Of a DNA stretch of 38,053 nt, positions 1-36,114 are shown piece after piece. Every line of letters starts with the position of its first letter. Within the stretch, counting starts at the first letter, position 1. The position numbers and the translations under genes were made by a program. The DNA comes from Gammaproteobacteria bacterium GWE2_42_36 (lineage in GTDB: Bacteria; Pseudomonadota; Gammaproteobacteria; UBA12402), in the NCBI GenBank assembly GCA_001801305.1, contig MGXH01000080.1:1-38053 (forward strand). The letters run 5' to 3'. Under the pieces are notes generated by a model, which was not told where the DNA came from, made no database searches, and saw nothing but the letters and a program-made list of their open reading frames with translations.

Positions 1-3000
1 GCTTGAAGGATCGGTTGCTGCAGTGGGAGTTCCATTAGCGACAATGTCTTTGCATTCGGGATTACTGGTTGCTTGTTTTAATGATAAAGAGACGCCCGTG
101 ATTTGAGCATCCTGAATTGTCGGTAATGTTTTGAATGTCGCGGCTGTATCGGTTGTATCGCCAGCACAGGTTGTTCCCAGTTTTGTGTCGGCGGAAATCG
201 CTTCGCCAATGATGAAAACAGGGGGTGTTGCGATTGTTTGCACTATGGGACGGCTACCAATTTTAACTATCCAATTTTGCGTTTGTGTTTGAGCGTCATC
301 ATCTTTGACGGTGAGGATGATGTTATCACCGGCAGTTATTGAAATCGGTGTACCAGAAAGGATGACGTCGTAATGGTTCGCTGTAGTTTGCTGAATGGTA
401 GAGAGTAAACCATGTAAATCACCTGATAATGTGATTTGTTTTTGCGGATCAGCGAAAGAGCCTGTGACTGAAGCGATCGTATACGATGGATTTTCTTCAT
501 GCACGATGAAAGTATGCGTATCTTTCATTTGAATATCGGGTACAGCATCGACATTACCGGAAGACGCATCAGGCGCTGTAATTTGACCGGCATTTGTAGA
601 GATTTTAGATATCACTAACGGTGTTGCTTTAAATGAAGCAGGTGTTCCAGAAATCGTGATTGTCGCTAAATGTTGTTCGTCGTCGTAATTAATTTGACTT
701 ATCAGCCCGTGCAAATCAGTGGGATTTAAGGCGAGCGTATGATCGAGTGCAAATCCTTGACCGTCGATGGTAGCAATCGTTTGATCAGCAACCGGCACAC
801 CAGCCGTTAGATGTAAATCCGTCGGCGTGACAACCGGTCGATTGGCAATGATTAATTTCCAATTTACGTCTGCTGCTGACTGTTGATATTTATCTTTAGC
901 ACTAATCGTTACTATTTCGCCGGATGGATCGGTTGTTGAAGTAGCTGAGCCTGATAAAGTAACTGCATAAGTTGAAGCGGAATTCGAAACAGGCGAAATT
1001 GTCATTGTCAATCCGTGTAAATCACCGATTGTTTTTATTTCATTTTGTGGATCATCGAACATGCCTTGAACCGTTGCGATTTGGAATGAATCCGTTTTAC
1101 CCGTGACGAAGACGGGGGAACCAGTAGAAGGCGTGATTGCAGGTGCAGCAGGGTTGTTTACAGAGAATTCTCCTGAAGATTGATTCGTGATCGACAATCC
1201 GAGATTGTTCGTCGCAGAAATGTTAAGTGTTTGCGGCGCAGTTGTTATTGTAGTGGGTGTGCCGTTTAATATGATTGAAGCGGATGTGGGCGTGCAATTG
1301 ACTGCCGCAGTTAATCCATCGATGCTGGGTTTTGAAATGATGATTGGCGTCGATGAGCAATCGAATGCGCCACTACCAGGCAGGACAGTGGCGATCTCGA
1401 CATTATCAATCGACTTATCAATCGTAAATGTTTGTGCAGTCGAAGCGGTAACAGTGGGTTTATTCCCAATCGTCAAAGTATAAATCGCGAATGCTTGATT
1501 ATCGGGATAAAGTGTTGAGATACCTTTATTATTCGTAGCGCTGATTCGAACCGTGACCGTGCCGACGGGGGCAGTCGCTGAGAGGGTTCCCATCAGTTGA
1601 TTGTTTTGAATGCTTAATCCATAGGGGTTTCCAGTAATCAAGTGCCCCTGTGCATCGATAAAGCTGAGATTATCATTCGTAAATGACGGCGGTCCTGCGT
1701 CGATGGGCGAGCTAAAATGTTGATCTAAATCACCAATGGGGGTGAAAGTTGATCCGGGGGCAAATGTGCCCGAGCCTAAGTTACGTTGTTGATCGGTGGT
1801 GATTAACGGAGGGCCGGTAATTTTGAATGTACCTGTCGTGCCGGATATAGAAGCGCCATTACTGCTTCGAACATTCGATAACACCAATGAGGCTGTTGAA
1901 AAAGTCGGTGCCGTGGGTGCCGTGGTTAAGGTGACGTAGGCCCTATGTGTTGGATCGTGGGCGTCGAGTGTCAATTGCGGCGTTAAGCCGTCCGTTGTTC
2001 CAGTAATAGTCGCTTGAGAGAGATCGAGCGTGCCATTATAGGCTTCAATTGTTGCAATGGTATTATTGCCCGGCGTAGGGGTTTGTCCGATTTGTAAATC
2101 GTTTTGTAAATCAGTGGTCGTTATCGAAATGGCAGGAGCAATAGTAATATTTAACGTATTGTGAGAAGGATTAAGCGGATTGATATTGTTGATGGCCTGC
2201 AACGAGATTGTTTTTGTTCCAGAGGTCATAGTCGCAGGCACTGTGATATTGAATTGTGATACATTGCTCGGGTTGTTTTGAATGATGATGCCATCGGTTG
2301 TGCTCAGAGAGTTGAATGAAAGATCACCGCTATTCGTTGGGTTTTTAAAATAAAGCGATTTATCAAGAGAGATTGTTTCTCCTTGATAAAGTGTTTGAGC
2401 CGGTGGATTGACCACGGGTTGTGGTGCGCCTTCGATATTGAGCGTCCATGTTGCATCAGGAGCGGTTTTATCATAGCTGTTTTTAATACCGGAAATCCTC
2501 ACGTTAATCGGCGTATAGGTGGGTTCATTCGGTATTCCAGAAATCGTAATCGTTGCATGCGTGGTTGATATAGAGTGAATTTGTGCGTTTAGGTTATTAC
2601 CGATAGCGATATCTGTATCGGGCGTAGTTGAGCCATTGACCGCAATCGTTTGCTGCAAAGTTCCCTCATTAGCTTGAATATCGGCGATTTTAAATGTCTC
2701 AGTTTGCTGATAGAGAAAATCATGTGTGTATGTTTGAATGTCGGGACTTTGAGCGTCAGTGACCGTTAATAGGTAAATCGCTGCATCGGCGGATGTGCCT
2801 TGTGCATTGGTTGCGGTAATCCATACATTATAAACACCGGCTTCAACCGTGGGCGCGATGGTTCCAGCAAGCTGATATTGGCCATTATTTGGCTGAATGA
2901 CCAATCCAAAATGAGAAGATAAATCAGTGGTCGACCCTTGTTTATAAAGGCGCAAATTGTTTTTTGTGGTAAAGGTTAAATCGCCACCTTGGACTGGATT

Positions 3001-6000
3001 CAAGAAATTCGCGGCCAAATCATGCGTTGCGGCATTGCCGATAAAAGCATCACCGGGATGTGCATTGCTGGTGCCGAGATTCACTTTGCCGGTATCCACA
3101 AACGGGGCGCCAGCGATTTGTAGAGTGAAATTTTGTGGGTCAGCGCTTTCATGATAACTATTTTTTAGTCCGGCGATAGTCAGTGTTTCCGAAGCGATGG
3201 TTGGATTGATGAGTGCTTGCGATGAGCTTAAATATAAATATTTTTCTTGCGTTGTTCCTTCGGAGGCGGGAATGCTGGCAATGAGTTGATGACTATTATT
3301 CTGATTCCAATCATTGAGAGACAAGCCATTGATGGTGATAGCACTCGTGTCCAAGGTGCCATCCGTTGTGTTTAAAATAGCTATTTTTCTTGCTGAAAGC
3401 GTTTGTCCTGCCATGAAATAATTTGGTGTGATGGGTTGCAGCTGAACGGTTGGTTTAGTGACGGCAGTAATGGTTAATTGATAATGGGCACAATCATTCG
3501 GTGATGCCGATGTCCCTTCGGCATTCACTGCGCAGATGAAAATGGTTTGGGGCGTTGTGCTGATCGGTGCTGTATTGCTGATTGCACCACTTAACGTATA
3601 GGTGCCAAGTGACGCATTCGGCGTTAAGGTTAAACCGTACGTGCTCGAAACGTCAGAGATTTGATCGGCGGATAAATTCAGCGTCGTTATAGCGCCGCTC
3701 TTAGTTGGATTATGAAAGAGTGTTGCCGTATTTAGCGTGATTGGTGTAACTGAATCCCCTGGATGCAAGGTCGCGCTGCCTACATTTTGTTGAGCCGGAT
3801 CGACATAAGGGTTGCCCGCAATATTCAGTTTGAATATGGCATCTTCGGCTTGTGCGCCAAGGGAATTAGTAATGCCGTGAATGGTTAATGATTCTTCGGT
3901 TAAGGTCGGGGATGTGATAGCACCGACAAATTGTAGGTGTCCAGTGGTGGGATTGCCGGGATCATCCCCTATAAATTCAGCGTGTAGGCCATGCGCATTC
4001 CAATGACTGAGGGCGATATTGTTAATCGTGATTTGATCAGGGTTTTTAATTACGCCATCATTCGCTTGGATATTTGCGATGGTGTAGTGAATGGTTGCTC
4101 CGTTATCGAAATGATCATTAGGGTTGATCGTGATATTCGGTAAATTGATCGCACGAATGTTGAAATGATAATGTGCCGATTCGGTAGGATCTGAAAACGC
4201 GATATCATTTTTTGCTTGGACGACAAACATATGGCTTCCCGTGGTTGTTGGGGCATTCGTTTTAATCGTGCCCACAAGATTGCCGTTGCTGTCTGCAAAA
4301 ATCCCATAGGTATTTTGAACATAAGTAGGATCAGTGCTAACGGCTGGCTCTGTCACTTGAAATTGATCGATGTGAATAGCACCACTTTGTGTCGGATTGC
4401 TAAAATGATCAGCGAGCTGATTCACAGCGTTAAATGATTGTCCCGGCGTATACGTGATATCTTCGCCGCCTAAATCAGCGGTAGAGCTATTAATGACAGG
4501 AGCGCCTCGAATCGTTAGAGGGATAATGAGTGGGGTGGTTTGAGTTTTACCCGCCACATTGGTAGCCCCGGTGAACGTGATGGTTTCCGATTGAAACGTC
4601 GATGTCGTGGGTGTTCCTTCGAGAAAAACAGTGGCTTCAGTCGGATGGGTTGGATCATTGGGTTTCAAGAGGGTGGTTAAGCCATGTCCTGTCCACTGTA
4701 AAACGGGGATGCCGTTCATTTTGATGGAATCAAGAATGATCGGACTATCGATTGATTGGATGGTCGCGATGGCGATACTGTTTTCTTGGCCGCGCGAAAA
4801 AATAGCTTTATCGAGAGGAGAATCGCCAGGCGTTTCTATGGTTTGTACGGTTAATTGATAAGTAGCAAAAGTGGTCGACCAACCGAGTGCATTATGGGCG
4901 ATAATTTTTAAAGTGACTCCCGGTGTAGCTGTCGATGGCGCGTCGAGCGGAATCTGCCCCCATAAATTGCCATTCGCATCGAGCGTTAAATGATAAGTGG
5001 TCGCCAGCGATTGCGTATCCGCGCTAAAGCTAAATTGATCAATCGGCCCGCTTTTTATCGGATTTTTAAAATGTGCTCCAAGGCCTATGATCGTTGTTAA
5101 TGCTTGGCCTTGTTTTAATGTCCCCGCACCTAAGCTGGATTGAGCAGGGTCAACCTGTGGGATATCGGCGACATTCAATGAGAAAAGCGCTGCATTGCTT
5201 TGTGATTCACCATAACTATTTTTGATACCCGTAATGGTTAATGTATCGGGTTGTGCATAAGTAGCTTGCGTGATTTGAGTGGCGGATAGAGCGAGTGTTG
5301 CCGCGGTATGATCATTGTTCGGCGTATAGGTTAAAGTCAACCCATGCGGCGCATTTTGATTCCAAATATCCAGGGATTGCCCATTGATTTGCATCGCGCT
5401 GGTATCCAAAGTGCCTTCGCCGGCATAAATCGTGGCAATGATGGTTGAAGATAAGGGTTGACCGACGGTCAGATGATCGATCGGTTGAATGATCAGATTG
5501 GGATTGTCGGCATTGTTGATGGTGAGATGATAAATCGCGCAATTTTTCGCAATGCCGATCGTGTTTTCAGCGCAGATTTGAATGCGATGATGATCAATAT
5601 AAGGGGCGCCTTGTGCAATGGTTCCCGAAAGATTGCCATCATCCGCTGACAATCCATATGTTGCTTTTACATCGGTCGATGGCGAATCCAAATCGGTGAG
5701 GTGAAAATTCGTTTTGATAGGGCCACTTCCTGTGGGGTTATCAAAATAGGAGGCTAAATTTTGAATCGGTGTAAACGCATCAGTTGGATGATAATAGGTA
5801 CTGGCGCCACCTAAATCAGCATAGGTAGATTTGACGTTAGGAGTTGATGCAATATAAAACGTAAACAATCGATCAACAGCCGTTTGATGATAAGAATTCG
5901 AGATACCTGTTAAATTGATTTGCCCGAATGCAGTTAGATAAGTCGGTGTGGTTAACGCGCTATTTGAAGTTAATAGAATTTGTGCATGCTGAAGTGTAAT

Positions 6001-9000
6001 GTTTTCAATCGATGCGGTGAGACCATAAGGATTTTGTGCATTCCAGTTCGTTATCGACAAACCACTTAATTGTAGCGTGCTAGATAGATCGGTTAAAACA
6101 CCATTATTCGCATAAATATCCGCCATGACATAATGGCTAATTATTTGTCCGGTTTTAAAATTCGGTGGTGTTGCGGTGGCATCATGGTTGATAACGGAGG
6201 GTAACTGTGGCGCGCCAATATTCAAATGATAAACAGCATAGGAAGTCGAGATGCCCTTGTTATTGACGGCAAAAACCTGGATCAATCGATTGGTCAGTGG
6301 CTGTAGATCCGCTGGAATATTGCCCACAAGATGGCCTTCGGCATCCACCGATAAACCGTAGGTTTGAGTTACATTCAGGGTGGGATCTTTTGCATCTTTT
6401 AAGAGGTAGCCGCTAATGGGTCCACTTATTGATGGCAGTGGATTATCAAAATGCGTGCTCACGTCGATCGATGTAAACGGGTCTGTGGGTAAATAGGTAG
6501 TATCTTCGCCACCCAAATCTGGTGAAGTGTTCACTTGCGGAGGGCCAGCAATTTTTAATAAAAATGTTTGCGGGGTTGCGATGTCGCCGTAAGTGTTTTT
6601 AAACCCGCTGATGGTTAGGCCGACTTCGGATAAAGTGACTGTCGATAAATTATTGCTTGTGAGCTGTAAAGTCGCGTTCGTATAGCCATTGAGAGGAGTT
6701 GATAAGAGATTTTGAAACAATGGTTTAACGCGGCTCGTGTTAGCTGATTGTCCCCATAGGATCGATGCGGTGAGATGATAAGGATTGCTGCTGTTCCATT
6801 CTGCTAAAGAAGCGCCATTAATTTGAATGGCGGCATTTTGATCGAGCGATCCATCGCCTGATGAAATAATCGCTGCATTATAATTCAAGGGCTGTCCCGC
6901 TTCAAAATGATCGACATCATGGATCTGGATCGTCGGAGGTATGGCGGCTCTAATTTGTAAATGATAAACGGCCGCATCGGTTGAAAGGCCGACGGCATTT
7001 CTAGCTTGCACCTGAATATCTGTTGTGCCAATCGGCGCTGTGTTTTTCAGCGTACCAGTTAATTCGCCTTGTCCATTCACCGATAAACCGAATTTATTTT
7101 CGACATCCTGTTTCCCATTTTCGCTTAAGACAAAGCTTGAGATATTGCCGCTATAATTCGGCATGGGATTGTTAAAGCGATCGGCCAGAGGACCAATAGG
7201 TGTTGAGGGTGAAAAAGGTTGACCTTGTCGATAAACGATATCTTGACCGCCTAAATCCGATGCGGCTGTTTTAACGAAAGGAGCGCCGGTGATGATGAGC
7301 GAATAAGTTTGCGGTGTTGTTTGGCTTTTGCCGAGTGTATTTTGAACGCCGCTGATGGTTAGCGTTTCTGGCGCTAAAGTGGGGTTTATTAGCGTATTCG
7401 ATTGTAGATTGATGTAAGCGGTTGTGGGATGCGTGTCATTGTCATATGTAATATTGGTTGTTAATCCATATTGTGTTTGCCAATGGGTTGAGGGTGAGGA
7501 AGAAACTTGAATGGAATTTTTTACTAATTCTCCATCTCCGGCAGTAATCGTTGCGATACGTTCGTTGATGTTACTTTGTCCTTGGGTGAACGCTGTGGTT
7601 GTGGGTGTGATTTGAATGCTTGGTATAGCGGTGGATTGAATGTTAAGCGCATAAGTGGCGTAGGTGTTGGATGTGCCGATATCATTAGCGACGTGTATTT
7701 GAATGATAGCGGGATGACCGGGTTGAGTGGCGGGGGCATTCGGTAAAATGACGCCTTGTAAATTTCCTTGATGATCGACCGATAGACCGTATGTCGCGCT
7801 TACGTCGATACCAGTTTCTCCATCAATCGACAATTTGAAAGTGGTTGGATCTGTTTTAATGTCGCCGCTTTTTGTGGGATTGTTAAATCGATTGTTTGCT
7901 CCGCTCGTTAAAACATTAACGGGAATGAACGGCGAGCCTTGTTTGTAAGTTATATTTTCGCCGCCTAAATTTTGATATGGCGGGTTGATGCTTGGCGGTG
8001 CGGCGATCGCTAATGTAAAACTTTGTGGCTGAGCTTGTACTTTTCCGTATGTGTTTTTAACGCCGCTGAGCGTGAGCATTGTATTATCGTTTGGAAAAGT
8101 CGGTTGTGCTCCAGCGTCATTGCTTTTTAATGTGATTGTCGCGAGGGTAGGATGATCATTATTATCGTAAGTGATCTCGGTGTGTACGCCATGGGCATCA
8201 TCTGTCCAGCTATTCGCCGGGATACCGTTAATTAACAGGGTATTTTTTTGTAATTCCCCATCGCCGGCTTTGATTGTCGCCAGCGTGTAATCGATGGCAT
8301 TACCCTGAATGAAATAATCATTTTGATTGATTGAAACGTGCGGGTCGTTGGTGGGGAGAATCGTTAAATTATAAGTAGCCGCAATCGTTGACTCGCCGAG
8401 TGCATTCGATGCGTAGATGTTAAGCGTCGTTGTTCCTATGGGCGCATTGCTTGGGATCATTCCGATTAAATTGCCATTGTCATCAATTGCGAGCCCGTCG
8501 CTTGTAGGCGCATCTAATCTAAAATGCGTGATCGGGCCGCTGTCGGTTGGGTTGTTAAAATACAATGCGAGATAGGTCATGGCAATAAATTCTTCGCCTT
8601 GTTTAAAACTGCCCGCGCCTAAATTATTTTTAACTGTCGGAATCCCGGCGACATTTAACGTAAAATGGGCAGGGCTAGATTGCGATAATCCATGGCTATT
8701 TTGTAATCCGGTGATTGATAAAATTTTTGGCGATAAGGTGGCATCGCTGACCTGATTGCTTTGTAATAATAATTCCGCTGACGTGGCATTGGTGTTTTGA
8801 AGGACAGCGTGCAAACCGTGTTCGCTCCAACTTTGATACGGCACGTTGTTAATTTGTAATTGGCTGACATCGAGATCGCCTTCGCCGGATTGCAGCGTCG
8901 CAATGGCTATTGGAGAAACGGATTTGCCTTCGACAAATGTTTGTGATGGCGCCGACGAAACGATTGTGTTCGGTGCGAGTGTTGCTGAAATCGTGAGCTG

Positions 9001-12000
9001 ATAAACAGCAGGCGAAGAAGATTGTCCGCTGCTATTGACTGCATAAACGTCGATGTCAATATGACCCATCGGTGCATTGGGTTTAATAGCACCAGTTAAA
9101 TTACCGTTAACAACTGATAACCCATATTTTTCTTCGACATCATGTTGGCCATTTTCTTCGAGAATGAAATTTGAAATCGTGCTGCTGCCGGAGGGATTAT
9201 TAAAATAACCCGCTAAATTCGAGAGGGTGTTGAAAGTGTCGCCAGGATGATAGGTAATGCTCGCGCCACCTAAATCTTCAGTATTAACAATGGGTATGCT
9301 ACCAATATTGAAATGAAAAATTTGTGAATCAGCGGATTGGCCATAAGAATTGATAATGCCAGTCATTTGAATGGCGGCAGTCGATAACGTGGGCAACGAT
9401 AAATGATCAGCAGAAGTCAATTGCAGCTCATCGTGTTGTGGCGAATCTTGTTTTATTGTGGCAATCAATCCATAAGGATTTTCGCTATTCCAAAGTGATA
9501 ACGGTTGGCCGTTCAGTCGAAGCGTTGTGTTTTGATTCGGTAATGTGCCGTTGGGATTTGACTCTTGAATGTCAGCCACGAGATAAGGCGATGCTATCGT
9601 TTGTCCGACTTGAAAGGGTGATGGTATGGTTGTCGCATCATGTGGTGTGACAACGGGTTTTTGCGCAGTGTTAATCGTTAACACATAAACGGCTGCATCG
9701 GATGAGGTGCCTTGTATATTGCTCGCTGTGATAAATAGGTTATACGTACCGGCTGAAACAGTGGGCGCAATCGCGCCAACAAGCTGATAGTGGCCGCTAT
9801 TTTGTTGAATGAATAATCCAAAACCAGAAGATAAATCAGTTGTGCTGCCTTGTTTATAAATGCGCAAATTGGCTGATGTGGGAAAAGTTAAATTGCCACT
9901 GTCGATGGGATTGAAAAAGTTTGCAGCTAAGTTTTGCGTGGCGATGTTGCCGGTAAAAGTATCAGCGGGATACGCGCTGCTCGTGCCCAAATTTACTTTG
10001 CTCGTATCAACAAATGGCGCGCCGGCGATGGATAAGGAAAATGCGGCGGGATTTGCCGTTTTTCCATAACTGTTAGTCACACCTGAAATTGTGAGCGGAA
10101 TGGAATTGAGCGTTGATTGCGTGATCGCAGTTGTGCCAGAAGAGGTGGTTAATACCACCTGTGCTGATGTGGGGTGATCGACATCAGCGCCAATATAGTT
10201 GACCTGCGTCATCAAACCGTATTTTGATAAATCAACGCCAGTAGGCGGATTTGCTTGAATGGTTTTTTGTAAGGTGCCATCCGTTGGATTGATATTTGCG
10301 ATCACGAGTTGATTAATACTATCACCGATGGAAAAGAAATTTTTCGGATAAATTGTAACTGTCGGCGCATCGGGTTGACTAAGGTGTAATAAATAACTAA
10401 CCGGTGTTGTTGAATTGCCGTATTGATTGCTTGCTGTTAGTTGTAAAGTGATTTCGGATAATTGGCTTGAATTTTTAATGCCAGGCGAAATAATGCTCAA
10501 GCCATCCGGCGCAATTTGAATGTCGTAGACATCGCTCACAGAAGCGGTCGGATCTTCTTTTACTTTTAAATGATACGTTAAGGGATTGCCGTAACTGGGA
10601 TTGCTAAAAGAAGCAGCAATTTTAGGAATGGTTAACGGATCACCTGTTTTGAAACTGCCTTCATCGATTACACTTTGGGGGATTGCGATCGGTGCGCCGG
10701 AAACATCGTAACTGATCGAAACAGGCTCGGCTGTTTCACCATAACTATTTTCAACATTTGAAATTTCTATCGACGCGGGTTGATTGTTAAATGTCGGCAC
10801 GGCTTGATCATTCGTCGATAAATGAATGCAAGCATCAAATCCCGTCGTACAATTTTTAGTGTTGACGGCTAACGATAAATGATTCGCCGGTGCAGCGTTC
10901 CATTGGTTGATCGTCATACCGTTGAATAAAATCGTATTTGTTTGCAGCGTGCCATCATTCGCTTTTAAATTAGCGATGATTTGATCTGAGCTCGTTCCTC
11001 GCGCGAAAGCGGGTGGTGTTAAGGTTGTTGTGTTGATCGTCGGCATGGTTGCTGCAGTCATAATTAACGTGTAATACGCCGATTGATCGATTGATGATTC
11101 ACCCAGAGCATTTTTTGCGCGGACATAAATTTTATAAGTACCGAGCCAGGATGATGGCGCCAGTGTGCCTGCTAATTGATTATTATTGCCTGTCAAAGCA
11201 AATAGTTGTGTTACGTTTGGTTCATCATTCGCAGGTGTTTGAAGCGATAATGAAAAATCAGTTTGTAAGTCGCCGCTCTTTGTTGGGTTTTTAAAGTGAG
11301 TTGAAAGCGGCGAAACGGTGTTAAAAAGATCGGTCGGGTGATAAGTGATATCTGCGCCGCCTAAATCTTGTTGATCATTGATGACTTCAGGTGTGCCGGC
11401 AATATATAAATCAAAAATATTATTGAGCGTAGGATCGGGTATTTGATGATGTGTTGTTTCAACATTGATTTTTAGTGTGTCGGGATTATTAAAGGTAGCG
11501 CTGGTGAATGTGCCATCCAGATATAAATCCGCCTGAGTGTTGTCGTTCGAATAGATAACTGAAGCCGATAATCCATGCCCAATGGGAGAGCCTGCAGTTG
11601 TGATGGGTATCGGCGCCGCTCCATTAATTGTCAGGGTTAATTGAGCGGGATTAATTTGATCTCCCTCTAATGCATCTGAATTAATCGTTGCGAAATTATA
11701 GTGCGATACGGTTGCCTGATTAATGTCGGTGAAATGATCGTTTTGGTGGATATGGATGATAGGTTGTGATCGGTCGATCACACTCAATACAATGTTAAAG
11801 GGCGTTGAGGATGGGCCAACATCATTGTACGCGATTAAATTAATGGGATAGGTTTTAACCGCAGCAGTGGGGGAAATGGACCCAGTGATTTGTGAGCCAT
11901 TGATTGTGACGCTGATGCCTTGATTTTGTAGATCAGCTTGGTTGCTGATCACCATATTATTCAAAGCGCCGCTGCCGGTCGAGTTGTTGAAAAAAGCGGA

Positions 12001-14631
12001 TCCGATTGGCGTACCAAGATCAATGGGCCGAATATCATCGCCTTGTCGTATTGTTTGTGAATAGGGGGTTGTTTTTGGTTCAGGCGGTCCACCCAAATCG
12101 AGCGCGTAAGTGCAAGTGGTGGTGTTATAGCCGTTCGACAGGGTGAAGGGAAGTTGTAGTGATCCACTTTGCGTCGTTTGTGTGATTTGGGAAGAGTCTA
12201 GGGTCACAGAGCAAGTTTGTGTTGATCCATCGCAATTTGAATTCAGTAATGCGTGATAAGGCGCCAGTTGCGTATTGGCTGCACTTAAATCAACAGTGAG
12301 ATTTCCCGATTGTGCACTCGGTGCCGCGACGATATTGCTTAATGTCGAATAATCAGGGCGCGGGATGGGATGATTGACTTGCCAAGCGGCATTATGAGTA
12401 TTGGGTAACATCGGCTCTGGCGTTATATTGCAAACGGGTGCGTCGGGTTGCCCTATGTCGAGGGGTAAAGAAACAATACGCCCGATGCCTTTATTGTTTT
12501 TCGCGAAGAAGGGAAGAAGGTAGTGGCCTGTTGTTTTGATATTTCCTGTAAGGGTGCCTGTTTGAGAATTGAGCGTGATCTGGTTATCCAAATATTGAGT
12601 GGGGCAAATGCTCATATCATTGCCTAAACAAAATTGTAAATTGGTCGTACCTGAAGGATTTTGAATATAATGGGTCGCTTCAATGTCTAAGGGAGTTCCT
12701 GCTGGTAATGCAATGGCTGGAGGAGTGACTGTAATCGGTTCTGGGGCATCAGTCACATCCAACGAAAAGCGATCATTGCCTTCAGCGGGAGCAATAGAAT
12801 CTCCGGTGACATAATTGGCTGTAACAGGAAAGTGGTAAGTTTGATAAGTAGGAGTATTGTAGGGCATACCCGTCACATAAACATGGACAACGGGTTTTGG
12901 CGTATTCGGGTCGCAATCTGTTTTTTGATCGAGATTAAAAGCGCTTAATTGAATACTGGGGTTTTCTACTGCAGCCCCAATGCGAATCGAGCTGCAATCA
13001 ATGATGGGGATGACTTTATTTGCGTTTTTTGCCGTGGTCGCATTGCCTGTTCCGATGTCGGCGATCAACGTATCGGTAGAGGCATCGTCATCAATGATGG
13101 CTGGATAAGTCGTAATGCTAGGGGCGGGTGTTTCACTGATCATGAGCGTGAATGTTTGCTGATTCGCTTGAGAAGCAGGTCCTGCCGCATTGGTTGCTGT
13201 AATTGTCAGGGTAATAATGGATTTTTCTGCGAAGGTGCTCGGCCCCGTAATTTGTAAAATGCCATCATCATTCCCTGTTGCTGTATACGTGTAGGCCATT
13301 TGAGAAACATTAGGGTCGGAGGAAGCAAATGAAGCGGATAGTGTCATGCTATTAGCGCTTTGTAGGGGGTCATGAAATAATCCTATATCAGGATGATTGC
13401 CTGCGTCAGCAGACCCGTAAAAAGTGAGATTAATGGGATCTCCCTCATTCACGGTCATGTTAGCGGGTTGATAATTGGATTTATAGGGCGTTGAATCGCC
13501 GATTTGGACTACTTTTTCATCTTTGACCGCCATGACTTGCTGCATATAAACGGCAGGCGTCGAAGACCAATCTGACAAATTGCCTTCATTCGGCGCCGCG
13601 GTAAAAGCGGTATAAATCAGCGGATGTCCTAAGGTATCGCCACCCCATTGATAGATTAAATTCAAATTAAATTGGGTATCGTTTTGAGCGGTTGATTTGC
13701 CTAAAATTCGATTCCCTATAATGTCCATTTCTAATGTTGATCCTGGTACATCATAGAGGAGCCAATTAAAGCTGGTTTGGTAGTTATCGTAAATGGGACG
13801 CCGACTGGCGAGCAAAGCGATTTTTAATCGTTGCGTGATGAGTTGATTTAAAGTGAAGGAAGTCCCAATGCCTTTTTTGTTGGGCGCTGTGTCATATTCT
13901 GTATTATAAGTGAGATCATCATAACTTAACTGTGCGTTCAGTTGTGTTGTTTTTGTGATAGCCATGTCAGTGCCGGTGCTGACGCTTTTTACGGTACCGC
14001 CAGCAATATGACGATAATCATCATAAATGCCAGTCGTATTGGTGAACTGCTGGGTGGATAATGTTTTGCTGAGCGCTTGGCTATAAAATGCATTCGCATT
14101 AACATCGTTAAACCAAGCATTTTTTAACAGATGTTCGTAAGTTAAGCCTAAAGCATTTTGATAAATCCATTGATTGGTGCTGCCCGTTGTAAAATCAAAA
14201 TTTAATTTTTGCCCAAAATTTTCTCCGCTGACTTTGATGCGTTGGTTGTCAGTGAGCGTATGTCCCCAGGTAAAATTGAATCGACGTTGTGCGGTACCCA
14301 TTTCAATATCACCGGCCAAAGCATTATTCTCGTTGACCAGTTGGGCGTATTTTGAGATCAAACTGGCGCCAAATGTTTTGCTGTATTGTATATTAACGGA
14401 AAGCGGTCCAAAGGCATTGGAGAGATTAAGCGATTGGTTTTGAGTGAATTGTAGATTGGTGGAAAGCGGTCCTTTGAGGCCGAACATATCGTTCGATAAA
14501 GACAGGGTTTGATTGTTTGATACGAGTGTGGCGTTTTGTTGAAAGGGATAATAGGGGGTGTGTGGTGTGATGCTGCCGGTTAATAATGGCGACAATAAAA
14601 CGAGCAAGACTATTCGCAAAAAATACTTCAT
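1..14631 (-). CDS. Giant secreted/surface adhesin, N-terminal 4877 codons (C-terminus lies beyond the left window edge): signal peptide, inverse-autotransporter-like beta-barrel domain, then ~40 Ig-like (He_PIG / cadherin-like) domains
   Basis: Reverse-complement translation from ATG 14631 (plus-strand cat at 14629-14631) stays open to position 1, exactly 4877 codons. An in-frame TGA lies 18 nt upstream of the ATG. No other frame in 1-14640 has an ORF longer than 102 aa. Any stop in this frame would have produced a long ORF in the track, and none is listed. The N-terminus MKYFLRIVLLVLLSPLLTGS looks like a signal peptide. Protein-level repeat motifs recur throughout (DLGGxDITY, FxNPTxSG, YGLSVxxxGNLxGxI, IATIxAGDGxL, ISGxKNSYG). 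Confidence 0.88.
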   Translation of the reverse strand, partial: MKYFLRIVLLVLLSPLLTGSITPHTPYYPFQQNATLVSNNQTLSLSNDMFGLKGPLSTNLQFTQNQSLNLSNAFGPLSVNIQYSKTFGASLISKYAQLVNENNALAGDIEMGTAQRRFNFTWGHTLTDNQRIKVSGENFGQKLNFDFTTGSTNQWIYQNALGLTYEHLLKNAWFNDVNANAFYSQALSKTLSTQQFTNTTGIYDDYRHIAGGTVKSVSTGTDMAITKTTQLNAQLSYDDLTYNTEYDTAPNKKGIGTSFTLNQLITQRLKIALLASRRPIYDNYQTSFNWLLYDVPGSTLEMDIIGNRILGKSTAQNDTQFNLNLIYQWGGDTLGHPLIYTAFTAAPNEGNLSDWSSTPAVYMQQVMAVKDEKVVQIGDSTPYKSNYQPANMTVNEGDPINLTFYGSADAGNHPDIGLFHDPLQSANSMTLSASFASSDPNVSQMAYTYTATGNDDGILQITGPSTFAEKSIITLTITATNAAGPASQANQQTFTLMISETPAPSITTYPAIIDDDASTDTLIADIGTGNATTAKNANKVIPIIDCSSIRIGAAVENPSIQLSAFNLDQKTDCDPNTPKPVVHVYVTGMPYNTPTYQTYHFPVTANYVTGDSIAPAEGNDRFSLDVTDAPEPITVTPPAIALPAGTPLDIEATHYIQNPSGTTNLQFCLGNDMSICPTQYLDNQITLNSQTGTLTGNIKTTGHYLLPFFAKNNKGIGRIVSLPLDIGQPDAPVCNITPEPMLPNTHNAAWQVNHPIPRPDYSTLSNIVAAPSAQSGNLTVDLSAANTQLAPYHALLNSNCDGSTQTCSVTLDSSQITQTTQSGSLQLPFTLSNGYNTTTCTYALDLGGPPEPKTTPYSQTIRQGDDIRPIDLGTPIGSAFFNNSTGSGALNNMVISNQADLQNQGISVTINGSQITGSISPTAAVKTYPINLIAYNDVGPSSTPFNIVLSVIDRSQPIIHIHQNDHFTDINQATVSHYNFATINSDALEGDQINPAQLTLTINGAAPIPITTAGSPIGHGLSASVIYSNDNTQADLYLDGTFTSATFNNPDTLKINVETTHHQIPDPTLNNIFDLYIAGTPEVINDQQDLGGADITYHPTDLFNTVSPLSTHFKNPTKSGDLQTDFSLSLQTPANDEPNVTQLFALTGNNNQLAGTLAPSSWLGTYKIYVRAKNALGESSIDQSAYYTLIMTAATMPTINTTTLTPPAFARGTSSDQIIANLKANDGTLQTNTILFNGMTINQWNAAPANHLSLAVNTKNCTTGFDACIHLSTNDQAVPTFNNQPASIEISNVENSYGETAEPVSISYDVSGAPIAIPQSVIDEGSFKTGDPLTIPKIAASFSNPSYGNPLTYHLKVKEDPTASVSDVYDIQIAPDGLSIISPGIKNSSQLSEITLQLTASNQYGNSTTPVSYLLHLSQPDAPTVTIYPKNFFSIGDSINQLVIANINPTDGTLQKTIQANPPTGVDLSKYGLMTQVNYIGADVDHPTSAQVVLTTSSGTTAITQSTLNSIPLTISGVTNSYGKTANPAAFSLSIAGAPFVDTSKVNLGTSSAYPADTFTGNIATQNLAANFFNPIDSGNLTFPTSANLRIYKQGSTTDLSSGFGLFIQQNSGHYQLVGAIAPTVSAGTYNLFITASNIQGTSSDAAVYVLTINTAQKPVVTPHDATTIPSPFQVGQTIASPYLVADIQESNPNGTLPNQNTTLRLNGQPLSLWNSENPYGLIATIKQDSPQHDELQLTSADHLSLPTLSTAAIQMTGIINSYGQSADSQIFHFNIGSIPIVNTEDLGGASITYHPGDTFNTLSNLAGYFNNPSGSSTISNFILEENGQHDVEEKYGLSVVNGNLTGAIKPNAPMGHIDIDVYAVNSSGQSSSPAVYQLTISATLAPNTIVSSAPSQTFVEGKSVSPIAIATLQSGEGDLDVSQLQINNVPYQSWSEHGLHAVLQNTNATSAELLLQSNQVSDATLSPKILSITGLQNSHGLSQSSPAHFTLNVAGIPTVKNNLGAGSFKQGEEFIAMTYLALYFNNPTDSGPITHFRLDAPTSDGLAIDDNGNLIGMIPSNAPIGTTTLNIYASNALGESTIAATYNLTILPTNDPHVSINQNDYFIQGNAIDYTLATIKAGDGELQKNTLLINGIPANSWTDDAHGVHTEITYDNNDHPTLATITLKSNDAGAQPTFPNDNTMLTLSGVKNTYGKVQAQPQSFTLAIAAPPSINPPYQNLGGENITYKQGSPFIPVNVLTSGANNRFNNPTKSGDIKTDPTTFKLSIDGETGIDVSATYGLSVDHQGNLQGVILPNAPATQPGHPAIIQIHVANDIGTSNTYATYALNIQSTAIPSIQITPTTTAFTQGQSNINERIATITAGDGELVKNSIQVSSSPSTHWQTQYGLTTNITYDNDTHPTTAYINLQSNTLINPTLAPETLTISGVQNTLGKSQTTPQTYSLIITGAPFVKTAASDLGGQDIVYRQGQPFSPSTPIGPLADRFNNPMPNYSGNISSFVLSENGKQDVENKFGLSVNGQGELTGTLKNTAPIGTTDIQVQARNAVGLSTDAAVYHLQIRAAIPPTIQIHDVDHFEAGQPLNYNAAIISSGDGSLDQNAAIQINGASLAEWNSSNPYHLTASILWGQSANTSRVKPLFQNLLSTPLNGYTNATLQLTSNNLSTVTLSEVGLTISGFKNTYGDIATPQTFLLKIAGPPQVNTSPDLGGEDTTYLPTDPFTSIDVSTHFDNPLPSISGPISGYLLKDAKDPTLNVTQTYGLSVDAEGHLVGNIPADLQPLTNRLIQVFAVNNKGISTSYAVYHLNIGAPQLPSVINHDATATPPNFKTGQIISHYVMADIYANNGVLTDLSSTLQLSGLSITNWNAQNPYGLTASIENITLQHAQILLTSNSALTTPTYLTAFGQINLTGISNSYHQTAVDRLFTFYIASTPNVKSTYADLGGASTYYHPTDAFTPIQNLASYFDNPTGSGPIKTNFHLTDLDSPSTDVKATYGLSADDGNLSGTIAQGAPYIDHHRIQICAENTIGIAKNCAIYHLTINNADNPNLIIQPIDHLTVGQPLSSTIIATIYAGEGTLDTSAMQINGQSLDIWNQNAPHGLTLTYTPNNDHTAATLALSATQITQATYAQPDTLTITGIKNSYGESQSNAALFSLNVADIPQVDPAQSSLGAGTLKQGQALTTIIGLGAHFKNPIKSGPIDQFSFSADTQSLATTYHLTLDANGNLWGQIPLDAPSTATPGVTLKIIAHNALGWSTTFATYQLTVQTIETPGDSPLDKAIFSRGQENSIAIATIQSIDSPIILDSIKMNGIPVLQWTGHGLTTLLKPNDPTHPTEATVFLEGTPTTSTFQSETITFTGATNVAGKTQTTPLIIPLTIRGAPVINSSTADLGGEDITYTPGQSFNAVNQLADHFSNPTQSGAIHIDQFQVTEPAVSTDPTYVQNTYGIFADSNGNLVGTIKTNAPTTTGSHMFVVQAKNDIAFSDPTESAHYHFNIRAINLPNITINPNDHFDNGATIHYTIANIQANDGVIKNPDQITINNIALSHWNAHGLHAEFIGDDPGNPTTGHLQFVGAITSPTLTEESLTIHGITNSLGAQAEDAIFKLNIAGNPYVDPAQQNVGSATLHPGDSVTPITLNTATLFHNPTKSGAITTLNLSADQISDVSSTYGLTLTPNASLGTYTLSGAISNTAPISTTPQTIFICAVNAEGTSASPNDCAHYQLTITAVTKPTVQLQPITPNYFMAGQTLSARKIAILNTTDGTLDTSAITINGLSLNDWNQNNSHQLIASIPASEGTTQEKYLYLSSSQALINPTIASETLTIAGLKNSYHESADPQNFTLQIAGAPFVDTGKVNLGTSNAHPGDAFIGNAATHDLAANFLNPVQGGDLTFTTKNNLRLYKQGSTTDLSSHFGLVIQPNNGQYQLAGTIAPTVEAGVYNVWITATNAQGTSADAAIYLLTVTDAQSPDIQTYTHDFLYQQTETFKIADIQANEGTLQQTIAVNGSTTPDTDIAIGNNLNAQIHSISTTHATITISGIPNEPTYTPINVRISGIKNSYDKTAPDATWTLNIEGAPQPVVNPPAQTLYQGETISLDKSLYFKNPTNSGDLSFNSLSTTDGIIIQNNPSNVSQFNITVPATMTSGTKTISLQAINNINPLNPSHNTLNITIAPAISITTTDLQNDLQIGQTPTPGNNTIATIEAYNGTLDLSQATITGTTDGLTPQLTLDAHDPTHRAYVTLTTAPTAPTFSTASLVLSNVRSSNGASISGTTGTFKITGPPLITTDQQRNLGSGTFAPGSTFTPIGDLDQHFSSPIDAGPPSFTNDNLSFIDAQGHLITGNPYGLSIQNNQLMGTLSATAPVGTVTVRISATNNKGISTLYPDNQAFAIYTLTIGNKPTVTASTAQTFTIDKSIDNVEIATVLPGSGAFDCSSTPIIISKPSIDGLTAAVNCTPTSASIILNGTPTTITTAPQTLNISATNNLGLSITNQSSGEFSVNNPAAPAITPSTGSPVFVTGKTDSFQIATVQGMFDDPQNEIKTIGDLHGLTMTISPVSNSASTYAVTLSGSATSTTDPSGEIVTISAKDKYQQSAADVNWKLIIANRPVVTPTDLHLTAGVPVADQTIATIDGQGFALDHTLALNPTDLHGLISQINYDDEQHLATITISGTPASFKATPLVISKISTNAGQITAPDASSGNVDAVPDIQMKDTHTFIVHEENPSYTIASVTGSFADPQKQITLSGDLHGLLSTIQQTTANHYDVILSGTPISITAGDNIILTVKDDDAQTQTQNWIVKIGSRPIVQTIATPPVFIIGEAISADTKLGTTCAGDTTDTAATFKTLPTIQDAQITGVSLSLKQATSNPECKDIVANGTPTAATDPSS
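1465..11780 (-). repeat. Intragenic tandem array of ~15 diverged two-domain (A+B) Ig-like super-repeats, period roughly 0.65-0.74 kb
   Basis: The plus-strand signature gcc(g/a)cctaaatc (reverse complement of D-L-G-G) or a variant recurs near 1775, 3075, 3785, 4470, 5125, 5810, 6512, 7252, 7965, 8615, 9268, 9985 and 11360. The translated units alternate between module A (DLGGxDITY...FxNPTxSG...YGLSV..GNLxGxI..AP.G...I.V.A.N..G.S..A.Y.L.I) and module B (P.I......F..GQ....IATIxAGDGxLD...I.ING.....W....HGL.A......A.L.L.S.....L.ISG.KNSYG.....F.L.IAG.P). Confidence 0.8.
13500..14631 (-). other. N-terminal export/anchor module of the giant ORF: signal peptide plus ~350-aa putative 12-stranded inverse-autotransporter beta-domain and linker; no LysM-type periplasmic domain
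   Basis: The segment shows alternating hydrophobic/polar beta-strand patterns rich in G/Y/N/T/Q. Examples are GLTYEHLLKNAWFNDVNANAFYSQ and the terminal NDTQFNLNLIYQWGGD, which resemble the intimin/invasin beta-domain consensus as I remember it. It is followed by SDWSSTPAVYMQQVMAVKDEKV, which could be a linker. A barrel N-terminal to an Ig-domain passenger is the type Ve arrangement. Confidence 0.5.
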
Positions 14632-14702
14632 TGATCTGCATTCACGTCACGATATACCTGTTATCCATCAGTTGAAAAAGGAATATCAAAGCGCTCTTTT
14701 CA

Positions 14703-14855
14703 ATGCGCGCAAAGATTCCCGCGCATCTACAATAGATCGCTTTTTATAGTTCCATTTTTTCTCTGATGAGTTTTCCTGCCTTGAAACGAATTGCGTCTTG
14801 CAATTCGTTTAGACGCGAATTCAAGATAAGCAACTTATCCTGAATTCGCGTCTAA
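14703..14855. promoter_or_regulatory. Cluster of three hairpins/palindromes in the upstream region of the giant gene
   Basis: Hairpin 1: atgcgcg (14703-14709) pairs with cgcgcat (14720-14726). Hairpin 2: aaacgaattgc (14784-14794) pairs with gcaattcgttt (14800-14810). Hairpin 3: the 21-nt arm ttagacgcgaattcaagataa (14809-14829) pairs with ttatcctgaattcgcgtctaa (14835-14855), with a 5-nt loop and one mismatch (14824/14840). Confidence 0.45.
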
Positions 14856-15040
14856 GATTCCCTGAATTTTCGTTGAAGAGGAACGATAAAAAAATAGTTT
14901 TATGAGCGATAAGGCCCATTTTTTTAACATTTTTCCCTTGCAGAGAAGTATAGCTGAAAAGACAGAAACACTGAATAAAATTGTTTAAAAAAGCGACAAG
15001 AAATTAAGAGATAAATAGCGAAAGAACAGAGGGTGGGTAG

Positions 15041-15072
15041 AAAAAAAAGGGCTGAATTAGTGTCAGCCCTTT
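15041..15072 (-). terminator. Rho-independent terminator of rne
   Basis: The stem gggctga (15049-15055) pairs with tcagccc (15063-15069) and can be extended to about 10 bp. On the minus-strand transcript it is followed by a U8 run (plus-strand A8 at 15041-15048). It lies 13 nt past the rne stop (15085-15087). Confidence 0.85.
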
Positions 15073-15084
15073 GATTGTATTTTC

Positions 15085-17277: not shown

Positions 17278-17770
17278 AACTGTGTCCCTTATCGGTTGGG
17301 CGCTGAGCATCAATAGACAAGAGATATAATAGGGGCCATATTCAAATGTGAGTAAAACAATTTTGGGTAAAATAAGCTCGGCTGTGTCAATTGAGCTGTG
17401 ATTTCCCCGAGGAATGTATTGTGATAGCTTTTACTCAAAAACATATACTCTTCGCATTTTGGTTTTCCACGTTGTTGGCTTCCTCGTTCGCTTGAGTCAT
17501 GTATGCGTAATACACTCCTAAAGCTCGACTCGTCGCCGCCTAGCGGAAATTCCAAACTGCTCGAGTCTATTTGTGAAAGCCCTGAAAACTTATTTGCGAC
17601 GGGTATAGAGATTTCTTTTTTGAATTTGAAATGAAGCAACAACGAATCTTGTGCGTTACTAGTATGTTTTAGTAATGATCGTTGTTGTAGATGGCTTTGT
17701 CCCATTTTCTCTTGTTATCAATAATCAGTGCGAATTTAAAAAACAACAGCTCAATACAATCGATTGAGCT
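17278..17770 (-). promoter_or_regulatory. Long structured 5' leader/promoter region of rne (candidate autoregulatory UTR)
   Basis: The rne/mreB divergent intergenic region is about 650 bp and has no credible protein. It contains several stem-loops, for example agctcaat (17748-17755) pairing with attgagct (17763-17770). E. coli rne has a ~360-nt autoregulatory leader. Confidence 0.35.
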
Positions 17771-36054: not shown

Positions 36055-36076
36055 ATGAAGAAATTGATTTAAATAA

Positions 36077-36114
36077 AAAATGGTTCCATTTGTTTTTAAT
36101 GGAACCATTTTGTT
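36077..36114 (+). terminator. Rho-independent (bidirectional-type) terminator after the orphan 452-aa gene
   Basis: A 12-14 bp perfect stem, aatggttccatt (36079-36090) pairing with aatggaaccatt (36098-36109), has a 7-nt loop. It is flanked by an A-run upstream and ttttgtt downstream. Confidence 0.8.

What the first reader, a model, noticed from the sequence alone, without database searches (positions are those of the whole stretch)
1..14631. A >14.6-kb uninterrupted ORF invisible to the ORF track: giant inverse-autotransporter-like adhesin
The left 38% of the window looks empty in the six-frame track, with only 60-102 aa fragments. The minus strand nevertheless reads open from ATG 14631 to position 1, which is 4877 codons, and continues off the window.

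The order of parts is a signal peptide (MKYFLRIVLLVLLSPLLTGS), a ~350-aa beta-strand-rich domain ending NDTQFNLNLIYQWGGD, a linker, and about 40 Ig-like domains. That is the topology of type Ve (intimin/invasin-type) secretion, where the barrel is N-terminal to the passenger. It is not the topology of classical autotransporters or T1SS RTX adhesins.

If correct, this passenger of more than 4500 aa would be at the extreme upper end for this secretion type. That raises the question of how such a passenger is threaded through a 12-strand barrel. No LysM-type periplasmic domain is present.
Basis: partly seen in the sequence, partly recalled or inferred. Interest (0 to 1): 0.8.

Follow-up and report, generated by a model that had tools for sequence, protein, structure and literature searches.

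The report
Giant barrel-anchored surface adhesin gene
The left 14.6 kb of the window is one real gene for a roughly 5100-residue cell-surface protein made of about 42 Ig-like domains, anchored by an N-terminal outer-membrane barrel from a large unannotated family (also found in Legionella) that appears to work like the intimin/invasin secretion system without being a recognisable member of it.

Summary
The minus strand is open from ATG 14631 to base 1, 4877 codons with no stop. A 99.99%-identical 179-kb scaffold carries the complete gene at 5127 aa. It is a real gene: dN/dS is 0.14 against a 71%-identical ortholog, and the repeats are at most 75% alike at DNA level.

Anatomy, N- to C-terminus:
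- signal peptide, then about 55 disordered residues
- high-confidence outer-membrane beta-barrel (res 77-329), 14 strands by DSSP
- conserved linker (helix, extended stretch, strand)
- 18 tandem two-domain Ig/cadherin-like units, then single-domain repeats
- beyond the window, about 250 aa ending in a hypervariable Cys-containing tip

The topology is inverse-autotransporter-like. The barrel, however, does not match Pfam IAT_beta, either here or in 40 relatives; hhalign against YeeJ gives 2% probability, and the strand count is 14, not 12.

The barrel defines an unannotated family of 792 cluster representatives. It includes Legionella and Ca. Paracoxiella proteins labelled only "IPT/TIG domain-containing". 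Some members carry a periplasmic AMIN domain where intimin has LysM. No T1SS, type Va or sortase signal is present.

Best reading: a giant adhesin exported by a type Ve-like mechanism through a new barrel family. All evidence is computational.

The parts
14572..14631 (-). Start codon and Sec-type signal peptide (res 1-20, MKYFLRIVLLVLLSPLLTGS). No lipobox Cys.
   Evidence: Read directly from the sequence. In-frame TGA 15 nt upstream. Similar N-termini in most family members. SignalP was not available.
14404..14571 (-). Res 21-76: short pre-barrel segment predicted disordered, presumed periplasmic. No LysM or AMIN domain here.
   Evidence: pLDDT 23-30. No Pfam or NCBIfam hit.
13645..14403 (-). 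Res 77-329: outer-membrane beta-barrel of an unannotated family. 14 long antiparallel strands by DSSP. Last strand ...NDTQFNLNLIYQW.
   Evidence: AF2 pLDDT above 90. Foldseek hits are only OM barrels. 792 family representatives. No PF11924 match. 86% identity and dN/dS 0.08 against the ortholog.
13477..13644 (-). Res 330-385: conserved post-barrel linker. Loop, short helix (LSDWS, 352-356), extended STPAVYMQQVM (357-367), beta-strand AVKDEKVVQIG (368-378). Proposed plug and lumen-crossing segment.
   Evidence: Nearly invariant W, A-V-x-M, L-A and invariant V across 40 members. pLDDT 89-95 for the motif. Same order of elements as the intimin linker (PMC13078405).
1213..13413 (-). Res 407-4473: 18 tandem two-domain units of about 225 aa (A-type plus B-type Ig/cadherin-like beta-sandwiches). 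This is the stalk of the passenger.
   Evidence: Iterated self-HMM. Alignment A3. AF2 pLDDT 90. Foldseek matches RAGE VC1, protocadherin EC, titin Z1Z2 and nectin.
1..1212 (-). Res 4474-4877: B-type single-domain repeats (distal stalk). The ORF continues off the window for about 250 more codons (one more Ig-like domain plus a Cys-containing tip of roughly 115 aa).
   Evidence: HMM positions 108-224 only. 95% identity to the ortholog with dS 0.125. Tail seen in L006 and P0003. Full length of 5127 aa from the call in the near-identical scaffold.
14632..15084 (-). Upstream intergenic region. Contains the intrinsic terminator of the RNase E/G gene (15046-15072) and two palindromes (14784-14810 and 14809-14855) partly conserved in the ortholog's upstream region. 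Presumed own promoter and regulatory region.

Best explanation
The ORF encodes a giant (5127 aa) monomeric surface adhesin of an uncultured groundwater gammaproteobacterium with Legionellales-type relatives.

Proposed mechanism; every step is inferred unless marked shown:
1. The Sec system exports the protein using the N-terminal signal peptide.
2. The N-terminal module (res 77-329) is inserted into the outer membrane, presumably by BAM, as a roughly 14-stranded beta-barrel. The fold is shown by the model only.
3. The conserved linker (res 330-385) returns through the barrel lumen. A short helix sits at the periplasmic mouth, an extended stretch lies in the pore, and a strand pairs at the extracellular rim.
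4. The passenger of about 4750 aa is threaded outward from N to C as a hairpin. The sequential folding of about 42 Ig/cadherin-like domains acts as the ratchet, as in intimin and invasin.
5. Because the barrel is made first, export can run in step with synthesis. A very long passenger then never has to wait unfolded in the periplasm.
6. The product is a stalk of about 160-190 nm carrying a small, hypervariable, Cys-containing tip domain that probably binds the ligand.

The barrel belongs to a large unannotated family. That family is functionally analogous to the type Ve (inverse autotransporter) beta-domain but is not detectably homologous to it.
For: - ORF intact and under purifying selection.
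- Barrel fold: pLDDT above 90, 14 DSSP strands; only OM barrels among the Foldseek hits, including invasin 4e1t, EstA, FapF, OmpG and FadL.
- Family-wide architecture: 792 representatives. In 132 of the best 151 the module starts within 60 residues of the N-terminus, and a median of 683 aa follows it.
- Passengers elsewhere in the family are IPT/TIG or Ig-like.
- Members with an N-terminal extension carry AMIN, a periplasmic peptidoglycan-binding domain: three above the Pfam cutoff and two weaker. This places the N-terminus in the periplasm, like LysM in intimin.
- The linker motif is among the most conserved parts of the family and is modelled confidently as helix, extended stretch, strand. 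That is the order described for intimin.
- The repeat unit models as tandem Ig/cadherin-like sandwiches.
- Passenger chemistry suits unfolded transit across the outer membrane: net charge about -200, 3.5% K+R, 18 Cys that are mostly in close pairs.
- No RTX, LPxTG or C-terminal barrel; no ABC/MFP/TolC genes next to the gene in the window or downstream in L006.
Against: - No experiment exists; every structural statement rests on AlphaFold2 models.
Foldseek TM-scores are low (0.3-0.58) and do not pick out one barrel class.
- The signal peptide was judged by eye only.
- The tip domain of this exact allele was not retrieved.
- Nothing shows surface exposure.
- A weak, consistent resemblance of the last barrel strand to that of invasin and intimin leaves open very remote homology rather than analogy.
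Confidence: 0.66

Rival explanations
1. It is a true but extremely divergent member of the intimin/invasin (type Ve, PF11924) family. The barrel would share ancestry with IAT_beta, and the 14-strand count would be a model artefact or a two-strand insertion.
For: The overall architecture is identical. The invasin beta-domain 4e1t is among the Foldseek hits and has the highest sequence identity of them, 14%. The only region that aligns in every profile test is the last hairpin: GKSTAQNDTQFNLNLIYQWG here against GKSSKHETQWNLQMNYRFG in invasin. The order of linker elements is the same.
Against: PF11924 is absent from this protein and from all 40 relatives at E<=10, while YeeJ scores 6e-114. hhalign probability is 2%. 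HMM scores are 1-6 bits in both directions. The last strand is where a BAM beta-signal would sit, so that similarity could be convergent. DSSP counts 14 strands at pLDDT above 90. The highest TM-scores go to 14-stranded barrels: OmpG 0.58, against 0.48 for invasin.
Confidence: 0.2
2. The barrel is only a membrane anchor or porin-like domain, and the Ig-like region does not pass through it. The passenger either stays in the periplasm or reaches the surface by another route, such as a T2SS as reported for the invasin-like InvL of Acinetobacter.
For: Lumen passage was not verified. InvL is a precedent for an invasin-like adhesin using a T2SS (PMC9245377, listed, title only).
Against: The passenger is covalently joined to the barrel by a strongly conserved linker. 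About 42 rigid domains, 160-190 nm in all, cannot fit in a periplasm (estimate). The AMIN domains at the opposite end of the barrel in relatives argue that the two ends lie on different sides of the membrane.
Confidence: 0.08
3. It is a type 1 secreted RTX/LapA/SiiE-like giant adhesin, or a classical (type Va) autotransporter, whose export signal lies in the missing C-terminus.
For: Giant repetitive Ig-like adhesins in Gammaproteobacteria are most often T1SS substrates (general knowledge).
Against: An N-terminal Sec signal peptide is present. Both orthologs show the full C-terminus: one more Ig-like domain and a Cys-containing tip of roughly 115 aa ending CAI(D/Y)(I/L)YG(K/R). There are zero GGxGxD or LPxTG motifs and no room for a barrel of about 270 aa. 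No ABC/MFP/TolC genes flank the gene.
Confidence: 0.02
4. It is an assembly artefact or a decaying pseudogene.
For: The window is a metagenome-derived contig, and the gene is cut at the contig end in several assemblies.
Against: The same sequence appears in four other assembled contigs at 99.87-99.99% identity, and one 179-kb scaffold has the gene called complete. Orthologs are intact at 71% amino-acid identity and about 73% DNA identity. dN/dS is 0.14 in every segment tested. The repeats are too diverged to collapse.
Confidence: 0.02

Closest known systems
Inverse autotransporters / type Ve secretion (intimin, invasin, YeeJ; Pfam PF11924 IAT_beta; TC 1.B.54)
   Same: Signal peptide, N-terminal OM barrel, conserved linker (helical turn, extended stretch, strand), then a long monomeric passenger of tandem Ig-like domains ending in a distinct Cys-containing tip. 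Relatives have an optional periplasmic peptidoglycan-binding domain N-terminal to the barrel. Probable N-to-C hairpin export driven by domain folding.
   Different: No sequence or profile match to PF11924. 14 modelled strands instead of 12. AMIN rather than LysM as the periplasmic domain. Passenger domains are not Big_1/Big_2 and match no Pfam family. The tip does not match the intimin/invasin C-type lectin-like domain by sequence. At 5127 aa it is more than twice the 2339 aa of YeeJ, from the CDS coordinates.
14-stranded monomeric OM barrels (OmpG, FadL/TodX, PorV)
   Same: Best global structural overlap: TM-score normalised to target is 0.56-0.58 for OmpG, and TM normalised to query is about 0.40 for FadL and PorV. 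The strand number matches the DSSP count.
   Different: Those proteins are channels or shuttles without a covalently attached passenger. FadL is plugged by an N-terminal hatch; here the candidate plug is the C-terminal linker. There is no sequence similarity.
Giant T1SS repeat adhesins (LapA, SiiE, RTX adhesins)
   Same: Size, many tandem Ig-like domains, acidic and Cys-poor composition, presumed adhesion role.
   Different: Those lack a Sec signal and have a C-terminal RTX/T1SS signal plus adjacent ABC/MFP genes. None of these is present here.
Legionella and Ca. Paracoxiella 'IPT/TIG domain-containing proteins' (e.g. L. pneumophila D7221_08990, L. bozemanae, P. cheracis)
   Same: True homologs of the barrel and linker module, E 1e-110 to 1e-152 against the family profile.
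   Different: They are short (about 500-700 aa) with a few IPT/TIG domains as passenger. They are uncharacterised, and no paper was found.

Membership tests
Inverse autotransporter (type Ve; PF11924 IAT_beta) | Sequence match to the IAT_beta / invasin_beta profile (barrel plus linker) | tested here: not met
   No PF11924 hit for the whole protein or for res 1-420 at E<=1. None in 40 relatives at E<=10. Positive control YeeJ scores 6.4e-114. hhalign probability 2%. HMMs score 1-6 bits both ways. No PDB sequence hit.
Inverse autotransporter (type Ve; PF11924 IAT_beta) | 12-stranded beta-barrel | tested here: not met
   DSSP on the AF2 model (pLDDT above 90) gives 14 long strands between res 77 and 329. 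The best TM-scores are to 14-stranded barrels. Caveat: this is a model only, and the coordinates were not inspected.
Inverse autotransporter (type Ve; PF11924 IAT_beta) | Barrel N-terminal to the passenger, after a Sec signal peptide | tested here: met
   The same holds across the family: 132 of 151 members have the module within 60 aa of the N-terminus. The signal peptide was judged by inspection only.
Inverse autotransporter (type Ve; PF11924 IAT_beta) | Linker that plugs and crosses the barrel lumen (periplasmic helical turn, extended segment, extracellular beta-strand) | tested here: inconclusive
   The same order of secondary-structure elements is modelled with high conservation and pLDDT 89-95, matching the intimin description. 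The position inside the lumen could not be checked without coordinates.
Inverse autotransporter (type Ve; PF11924 IAT_beta) | Monomeric passenger of tandem Ig-like domains | tested here: met
   18 two-domain units plus single domains. AF2 pLDDT 90 and Foldseek matches to tandem Ig/cadherin ectodomains. The domains are not Big_1/Big_2 by Pfam.
Inverse autotransporter (type Ve; PF11924 IAT_beta) | C-terminal lectin-like (CTLD) cap with a disulfide pair | tested here: inconclusive
   The tip lies outside the window. In the orthologs it is a domain of roughly 115 aa with 4 Cys, no Pfam hit and only insignificant PDB matches to Ig V domains at E 0.1-0.7.
Inverse autotransporter (type Ve; PF11924 IAT_beta) | Optional periplasmic LysM peptidoglycan-binding domain | tested here: not met
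   Absent from this protein. Relatives carry AMIN (PF11741) in that position instead.
Inverse autotransporter (type Ve; PF11924 IAT_beta) | BAM-dependent insertion and surface exposure of the passenger | not testable with these tools
   This needs experiments.
T1SS RTX-type giant adhesin | C-terminal secretion signal or RTX nonapeptides, no Sec signal, adjacent ABC/MFP/OMP genes | tested here: not met
   Zero GGxGxD motifs in the window protein and in the full-length ortholog. Sec-type N-terminus. Neighbours are rne, mreBCD, maf, yhdP and, downstream in L006, an unknown ORF followed by ruvA, ruvC, yebC and aspS.
Classical autotransporter (type Va) | C-terminal 12-stranded barrel of about 270 aa | tested here: not met
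   Only about 250 aa lie beyond the window, made up of one Ig-like domain and a Cys-containing tip.
Outer-membrane beta-barrel superfamily (fold level) | Closed antiparallel membrane beta-barrel fold | tested here: met
   146 Foldseek PDB matches at E<=1e-3; all 50 listed hits are OM barrels. Weak Pfam OMP_b-brl_3 and OMP_b-brl hits in a few relatives.

The most novel reading that the evidence does not exclude
The barrel-plus-linker module is an independent, non-homologous invention of inverse autotransport. It would be a previously unrecognised type V-like secretion subclass with a 14-stranded barrel, an AMIN periplasmic anchor and Ig/TIG passengers. It is widespread in Legionellales-type Gammaproteobacteria, including Legionella pneumophila. 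Its largest known member carries a passenger of about 4750 aa with a recombining, hypervariable receptor-binding tip.
Probability: 0.4. Interest if true: 0.8.

Novelty: new variant of a known kind. Interest (0 to 1): 0.62.

Why it matters
If the model holds, the inverse-autotransporter way of displaying adhesins is not confined to the intimin/invasin family. A second barrel family, invisible to current domain libraries, would do the same job in Legionella, in Coxiellaceae relatives and in many uncultured Gammaproteobacteria. There its members are annotated only as 'IPT/TIG domain-containing' or 'hypothetical'.

This would give type V secretion research a natural comparison case. One could ask which features of barrel, linker and periplasmic anchor are really needed for hairpin export. 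A wider, 14-stranded pore and an N-terminal barrel that is made first may explain how passengers of nearly 5000 residues are handled. It would also point to uncharacterised surface proteins in Legionella that may act in attachment to host cells.

The practical gain for annotation is a new profile for about 800 protein clusters.

Tried and rejected
- Pfam, NCBIfam and PDB sequence searches of the whole protein and the N-terminus returned nothing above threshold.
- The word-indexed homolog search with the N-terminus found only 2 relatives. The exhaustive profile search was needed to see the family.
- Retrieving this allele's own C-terminus failed in every route tried. The GTDB genome scan found nothing. 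The metagenome scan found only an ortholog 88% identical over the last 400 aa. The homolog search with the last 404 aa returned no scored hits. The 10-kb flank limit stops short of the gene end.
- The family alignment A4 was too diverse for the genome scan. A2 found only 3 loci, so the taxonomic range comes mainly from source names.
- Rfam and tRNA scans of the window were empty.
- Literature searches for a described family of this kind found nothing. The queries covered inverse autotransporter plus AMIN, Legionella or Coxiella, IPT/TIG plus Legionella, and new type V classes. The Paracoxiella genome paper does not mention its member.
- I considered and rejected a T1SS/RTX adhesin, a type Va autotransporter, a sortase substrate, a Ca-cadherin (no DxDxDG motifs) and an assembly artefact.
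Full report
**1. The observation**

Translating the minus strand from 14631 to 1 gives 4877 codons with no stop. The ORF lister shows nothing longer than 102 aa in this stretch. That is only because it omits ORFs that run off the source, which explains why the gene was "invisible".

ATG 14631 is the only possible start. An in-frame TGA lies 15 nt upstream. The upstream RNase E/G gene ends in a terminator-like hairpin with a T-run at 15046-15072, so the gene probably has its own promoter.

**2. Is it real?**

- The same DNA is present at 99.87-99.99% identity in four other assembled contigs.
- In a 179-kb groundwater scaffold (ENA ERZ28564033 scaffold_88) the gene is called complete at 5127 aa. 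That scaffold is 99.986% identical over the 21 kb held here, window 7932-28975, so only the N-terminal ~2230 codons of this gene were actually compared. On that basis the window lacks only the last 250 codons.
- A 5119-aa ortholog (P0003, 71% identity) and a second, partial ortholog (L006) are intact.
- Nei-Gojobori dN/dS against P0003 is 0.14 over 4857 codons, and between 0.08 and 0.20 in every segment.
- The repeats are old. The best DNA pair is 75% identical over 318 nt, and nearly all other pairs are undetectable. A collapsed or expanded repeat assembly is therefore not a concern.

**3. Anatomy**

- **Res 1-20:** Sec-type signal peptide, with no lipobox.
- **Res 21-76:** disordered in the model (pLDDT about 25-30) and without any domain hit.
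- **Res 77-329:** modelled with pLDDT above 90, using a 40-sequence family alignment, as an all-beta structure. DSSP gives 14 long antiparallel strands joined by short turns.
- **Res 330-385:** a loop, a short helix (LSDWS, 352-356), an extended stretch (STPAVYMQQVM) and a strand (AVKDEKVVQIG, 368-378). This stretch holds one of the seven invariant positions (V366), nearly invariant W, A-V-x-M and L-A, and the majority motif W..TPAV.M.QVLA..DQ.
- **Res 407-4473:** an iterated self-HMM splits this into 18 tandem units of about 225 aa, each an A-type plus a B-type domain.
- **Res 4468-4877:** B-type domains alone.

One unit, modelled with the 18 internal repeats as its alignment, reaches pLDDT 90. 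Its Foldseek matches are tandem Ig and cadherin ectodomains: RAGE VC1, protocadherin EC repeats, titin Z1Z2 and nectin. No Pfam family reaches its cutoff anywhere in the passenger.

Beyond the window, the orthologs carry one more Ig-like domain and a tip of roughly 115 aa with four Cys, ending CAI(D/Y)(I/L)YG(K/R).

**4. What the N-terminal module is**

Foldseek against the PDB returns only outer-membrane barrels: TamA barrel, FadL, OmpG, PorV, invasin beta-domain 4e1t (rank 11, 14% identity), EstA, FapF and NanC. E-values are about 1e-5 and TM-scores 0.3-0.58. The highest values go to 14-stranded barrels. The fold class is therefore secure, but the hits do not single out the intimin/invasin barrel.

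At sequence level the module is not IAT_beta:
- PF11924 does not match this protein.
- It does not match any of 40 family members even at E<=10.
- The control YeeJ from E. coli K-12 scores 6.4e-114 and finds intimin and invasin in the PDB.
- hhalign of the family profile against YeeJ gives 2% probability.
- HMMs in both directions give 1-6 bits.

The single stretch that aligns every time is the last hairpin: GKSTAQNDTQFNLNLIYQWG here against GKSSKHETQWNLQMNYRFG in invasin. That could be a trace of ancestry. It could equally be convergence on a BAM beta-signal.

**5. The family**

An exhaustive profile search finds 792 cluster representatives at E<=1e-3, 410 of them at E<=1e-30. Among the best 151:
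- In 132 the module begins within 60 residues of the N-terminus.
- A median of 683 residues follows it.
- Lengths run from about 190 aa (probable fragments) to 5119 aa, and only two exceed 3000.

Passengers that Pfam recognises are IPT/TIG. Fourteen members have an N-terminal extension of more than 100 aa. In three of these it is an AMIN domain above the Pfam cutoff, and in two more just below it. AMIN is a periplasmic peptidoglycan-binding module. It occupies the position that LysM holds in intimin.

Named members come from Gammaproteobacteria MAGs, Ca. Paracoxiella cheracis, Legionella bozemanae, L. pneumophila and uncultured Legionella. All are labelled "hypothetical" or "IPT/TIG domain-containing". 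I found no paper describing them.

**6. How it most likely works**

The published type Ve definition has these parts:
- an N-terminal 12-stranded barrel plus linker, equal to PF11924
- an attached monomeric passenger of Ig-like domains, often capped by a lectin-like domain
- an optional periplasmic peptidoglycan-binding domain
- hairpin export from N to C, driven by sequential folding

In intimin, the segment after the barrel is a periplasmic helical turn that plugs the pore, then a linker through the lumen, then a short strand that pairs with extracellular loops. That strand is essential for secretion. The order of elements modelled here is the same.

Four lines of evidence point to an inverse-autotransporter-like mechanism:
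- the conserved linker
- the periplasmic AMIN domains at the other end of the barrel in relatives
- the Ig-like passenger
- the passenger's chemistry: net charge about -200, 3.5% K+R, 18 Cys mostly in close pairs

Each step of that mechanism is inferred. Only the folds are shown, and those only as models.

With the barrel synthesised first, export can follow synthesis, so passenger length is not limiting in principle.

**7. Rivals**

- **Very remote homology to IAT_beta** remains possible (about 0.2). It would not change the mechanism.
- **An anchor-only barrel with a periplasmic or otherwise exported passenger** is unlikely, given a stalk of 160-190 nm and the conserved linker.
- **T1SS/RTX, type Va and sortase readings** fail. 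There are no such motifs, no room for a C-terminal barrel, and no transporter genes nearby.
- **Artefact or pseudogene** is excluded by section 2.

**8. Extra findings**

- Conservation along the protein is uneven. Against P0003 the barrel is 86% identical, the linker 82% and the stalk about 67%. The distal single-domain repeats are 95% identical with dS 0.125, against 0.9-2.5 elsewhere. This suggests recent recombination of the distal end.
- Between P0003 and L006 the last ~120 aa fall to 30% identity directly after about 500 aa at 93-98% identity. The tip looks like an exchangeable, hypervariable ligand-binding domain.
- Three independent assemblies break within the last 250 codons, as expected if several tip alleles coexist.

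**9. Verdict**

I file this as a new variant of a known kind: a type Ve-like display system built on an unannotated barrel family, with this gene as its largest member seen. All evidence is computational. The key untested points are the strand count, whether the linker passes through the lumen, and surface exposure.

Noticed in passing
window 1-1212 (res 4474-4877); L001 and L006 gene ends: The distal stalk is 95% identical to the 71%-overall ortholog, with dS 0.125 against 0.9-2.5 elsewhere. Between two orthologs the final ~120-aa Cys-containing tip is only 30% identical, directly after about 500 aa at 93-98%. This looks like recombinational exchange of the distal end and a hypervariable tip cassette. 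Independent assemblies break within the last 250 codons (partial products of 4877, 4878 and 4920 aa).
   Followed up: partly
window 14784-14855 (upstream of the giant gene): Two adjacent palindromes, with 22-nt arms at 14809-14855 and 11-nt arms at 14784-14810. Their cores are conserved in the ortholog's upstream region although coding dS exceeds 1. They are a candidate operator or 5'-UTR structure. No Rfam match.
   Followed up: partly
L006 10657-11862: A 401-aa Ala/Pro/Cys-rich ORF lies directly downstream of the giant gene on the same strand. It has no Pfam match. It is followed by ruvA, ruvC, yebC and aspS on the other strand. Whether it is linked to the adhesin is unknown.
   Followed up: partly
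window ~26018 onward, compared with L002: One near-identical contig (ENA ERZ27254734) is collinear with the window only up to about 26018. It then carries different genes (Mg-chelatase/ComM-like, PNP_UDP_1) in place of the MBL-fold/beta-CASP gene and thymidine phosphorylase. This is a strain-level rearrangement.
   Followed up: no
window 16162-16273 (inside the RNase E/G gene): The NCBI contig DPKN01000079.1 (L005) lacks this 112-nt stretch, and no RNase E/G gene is called there. The cause is an indel or assembly difference in the low-complexity C-terminal half of the enzyme.
   Followed up: no
window 34000-38053: GC falls to 0.33-0.38 from about 0.43-0.45. The region holds a 452-aa ORF with no Pfam match (34696-36054) and a SAM-dependent methyltransferase-like ORF (36288-36998). 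It may be acquired DNA.
   Followed up: partly
window 17310-17705 (minus strand): A 131-aa ORF between RNase E/G and mreB is called as a gene in several assemblies but has no Pfam hit. It occupies what would be the RNase E/G leader region, so it is probably not a real gene.
   Followed up: no
P0119 (Legionella bozemanae family member), res ~470-672: After the barrel, the TIG domains and an Ig-like segment, this member ends in a domain with no precomputed Pfam annotation. The tip domains of the family appear to be diverse and are worth cataloguing.
   Followed up: no
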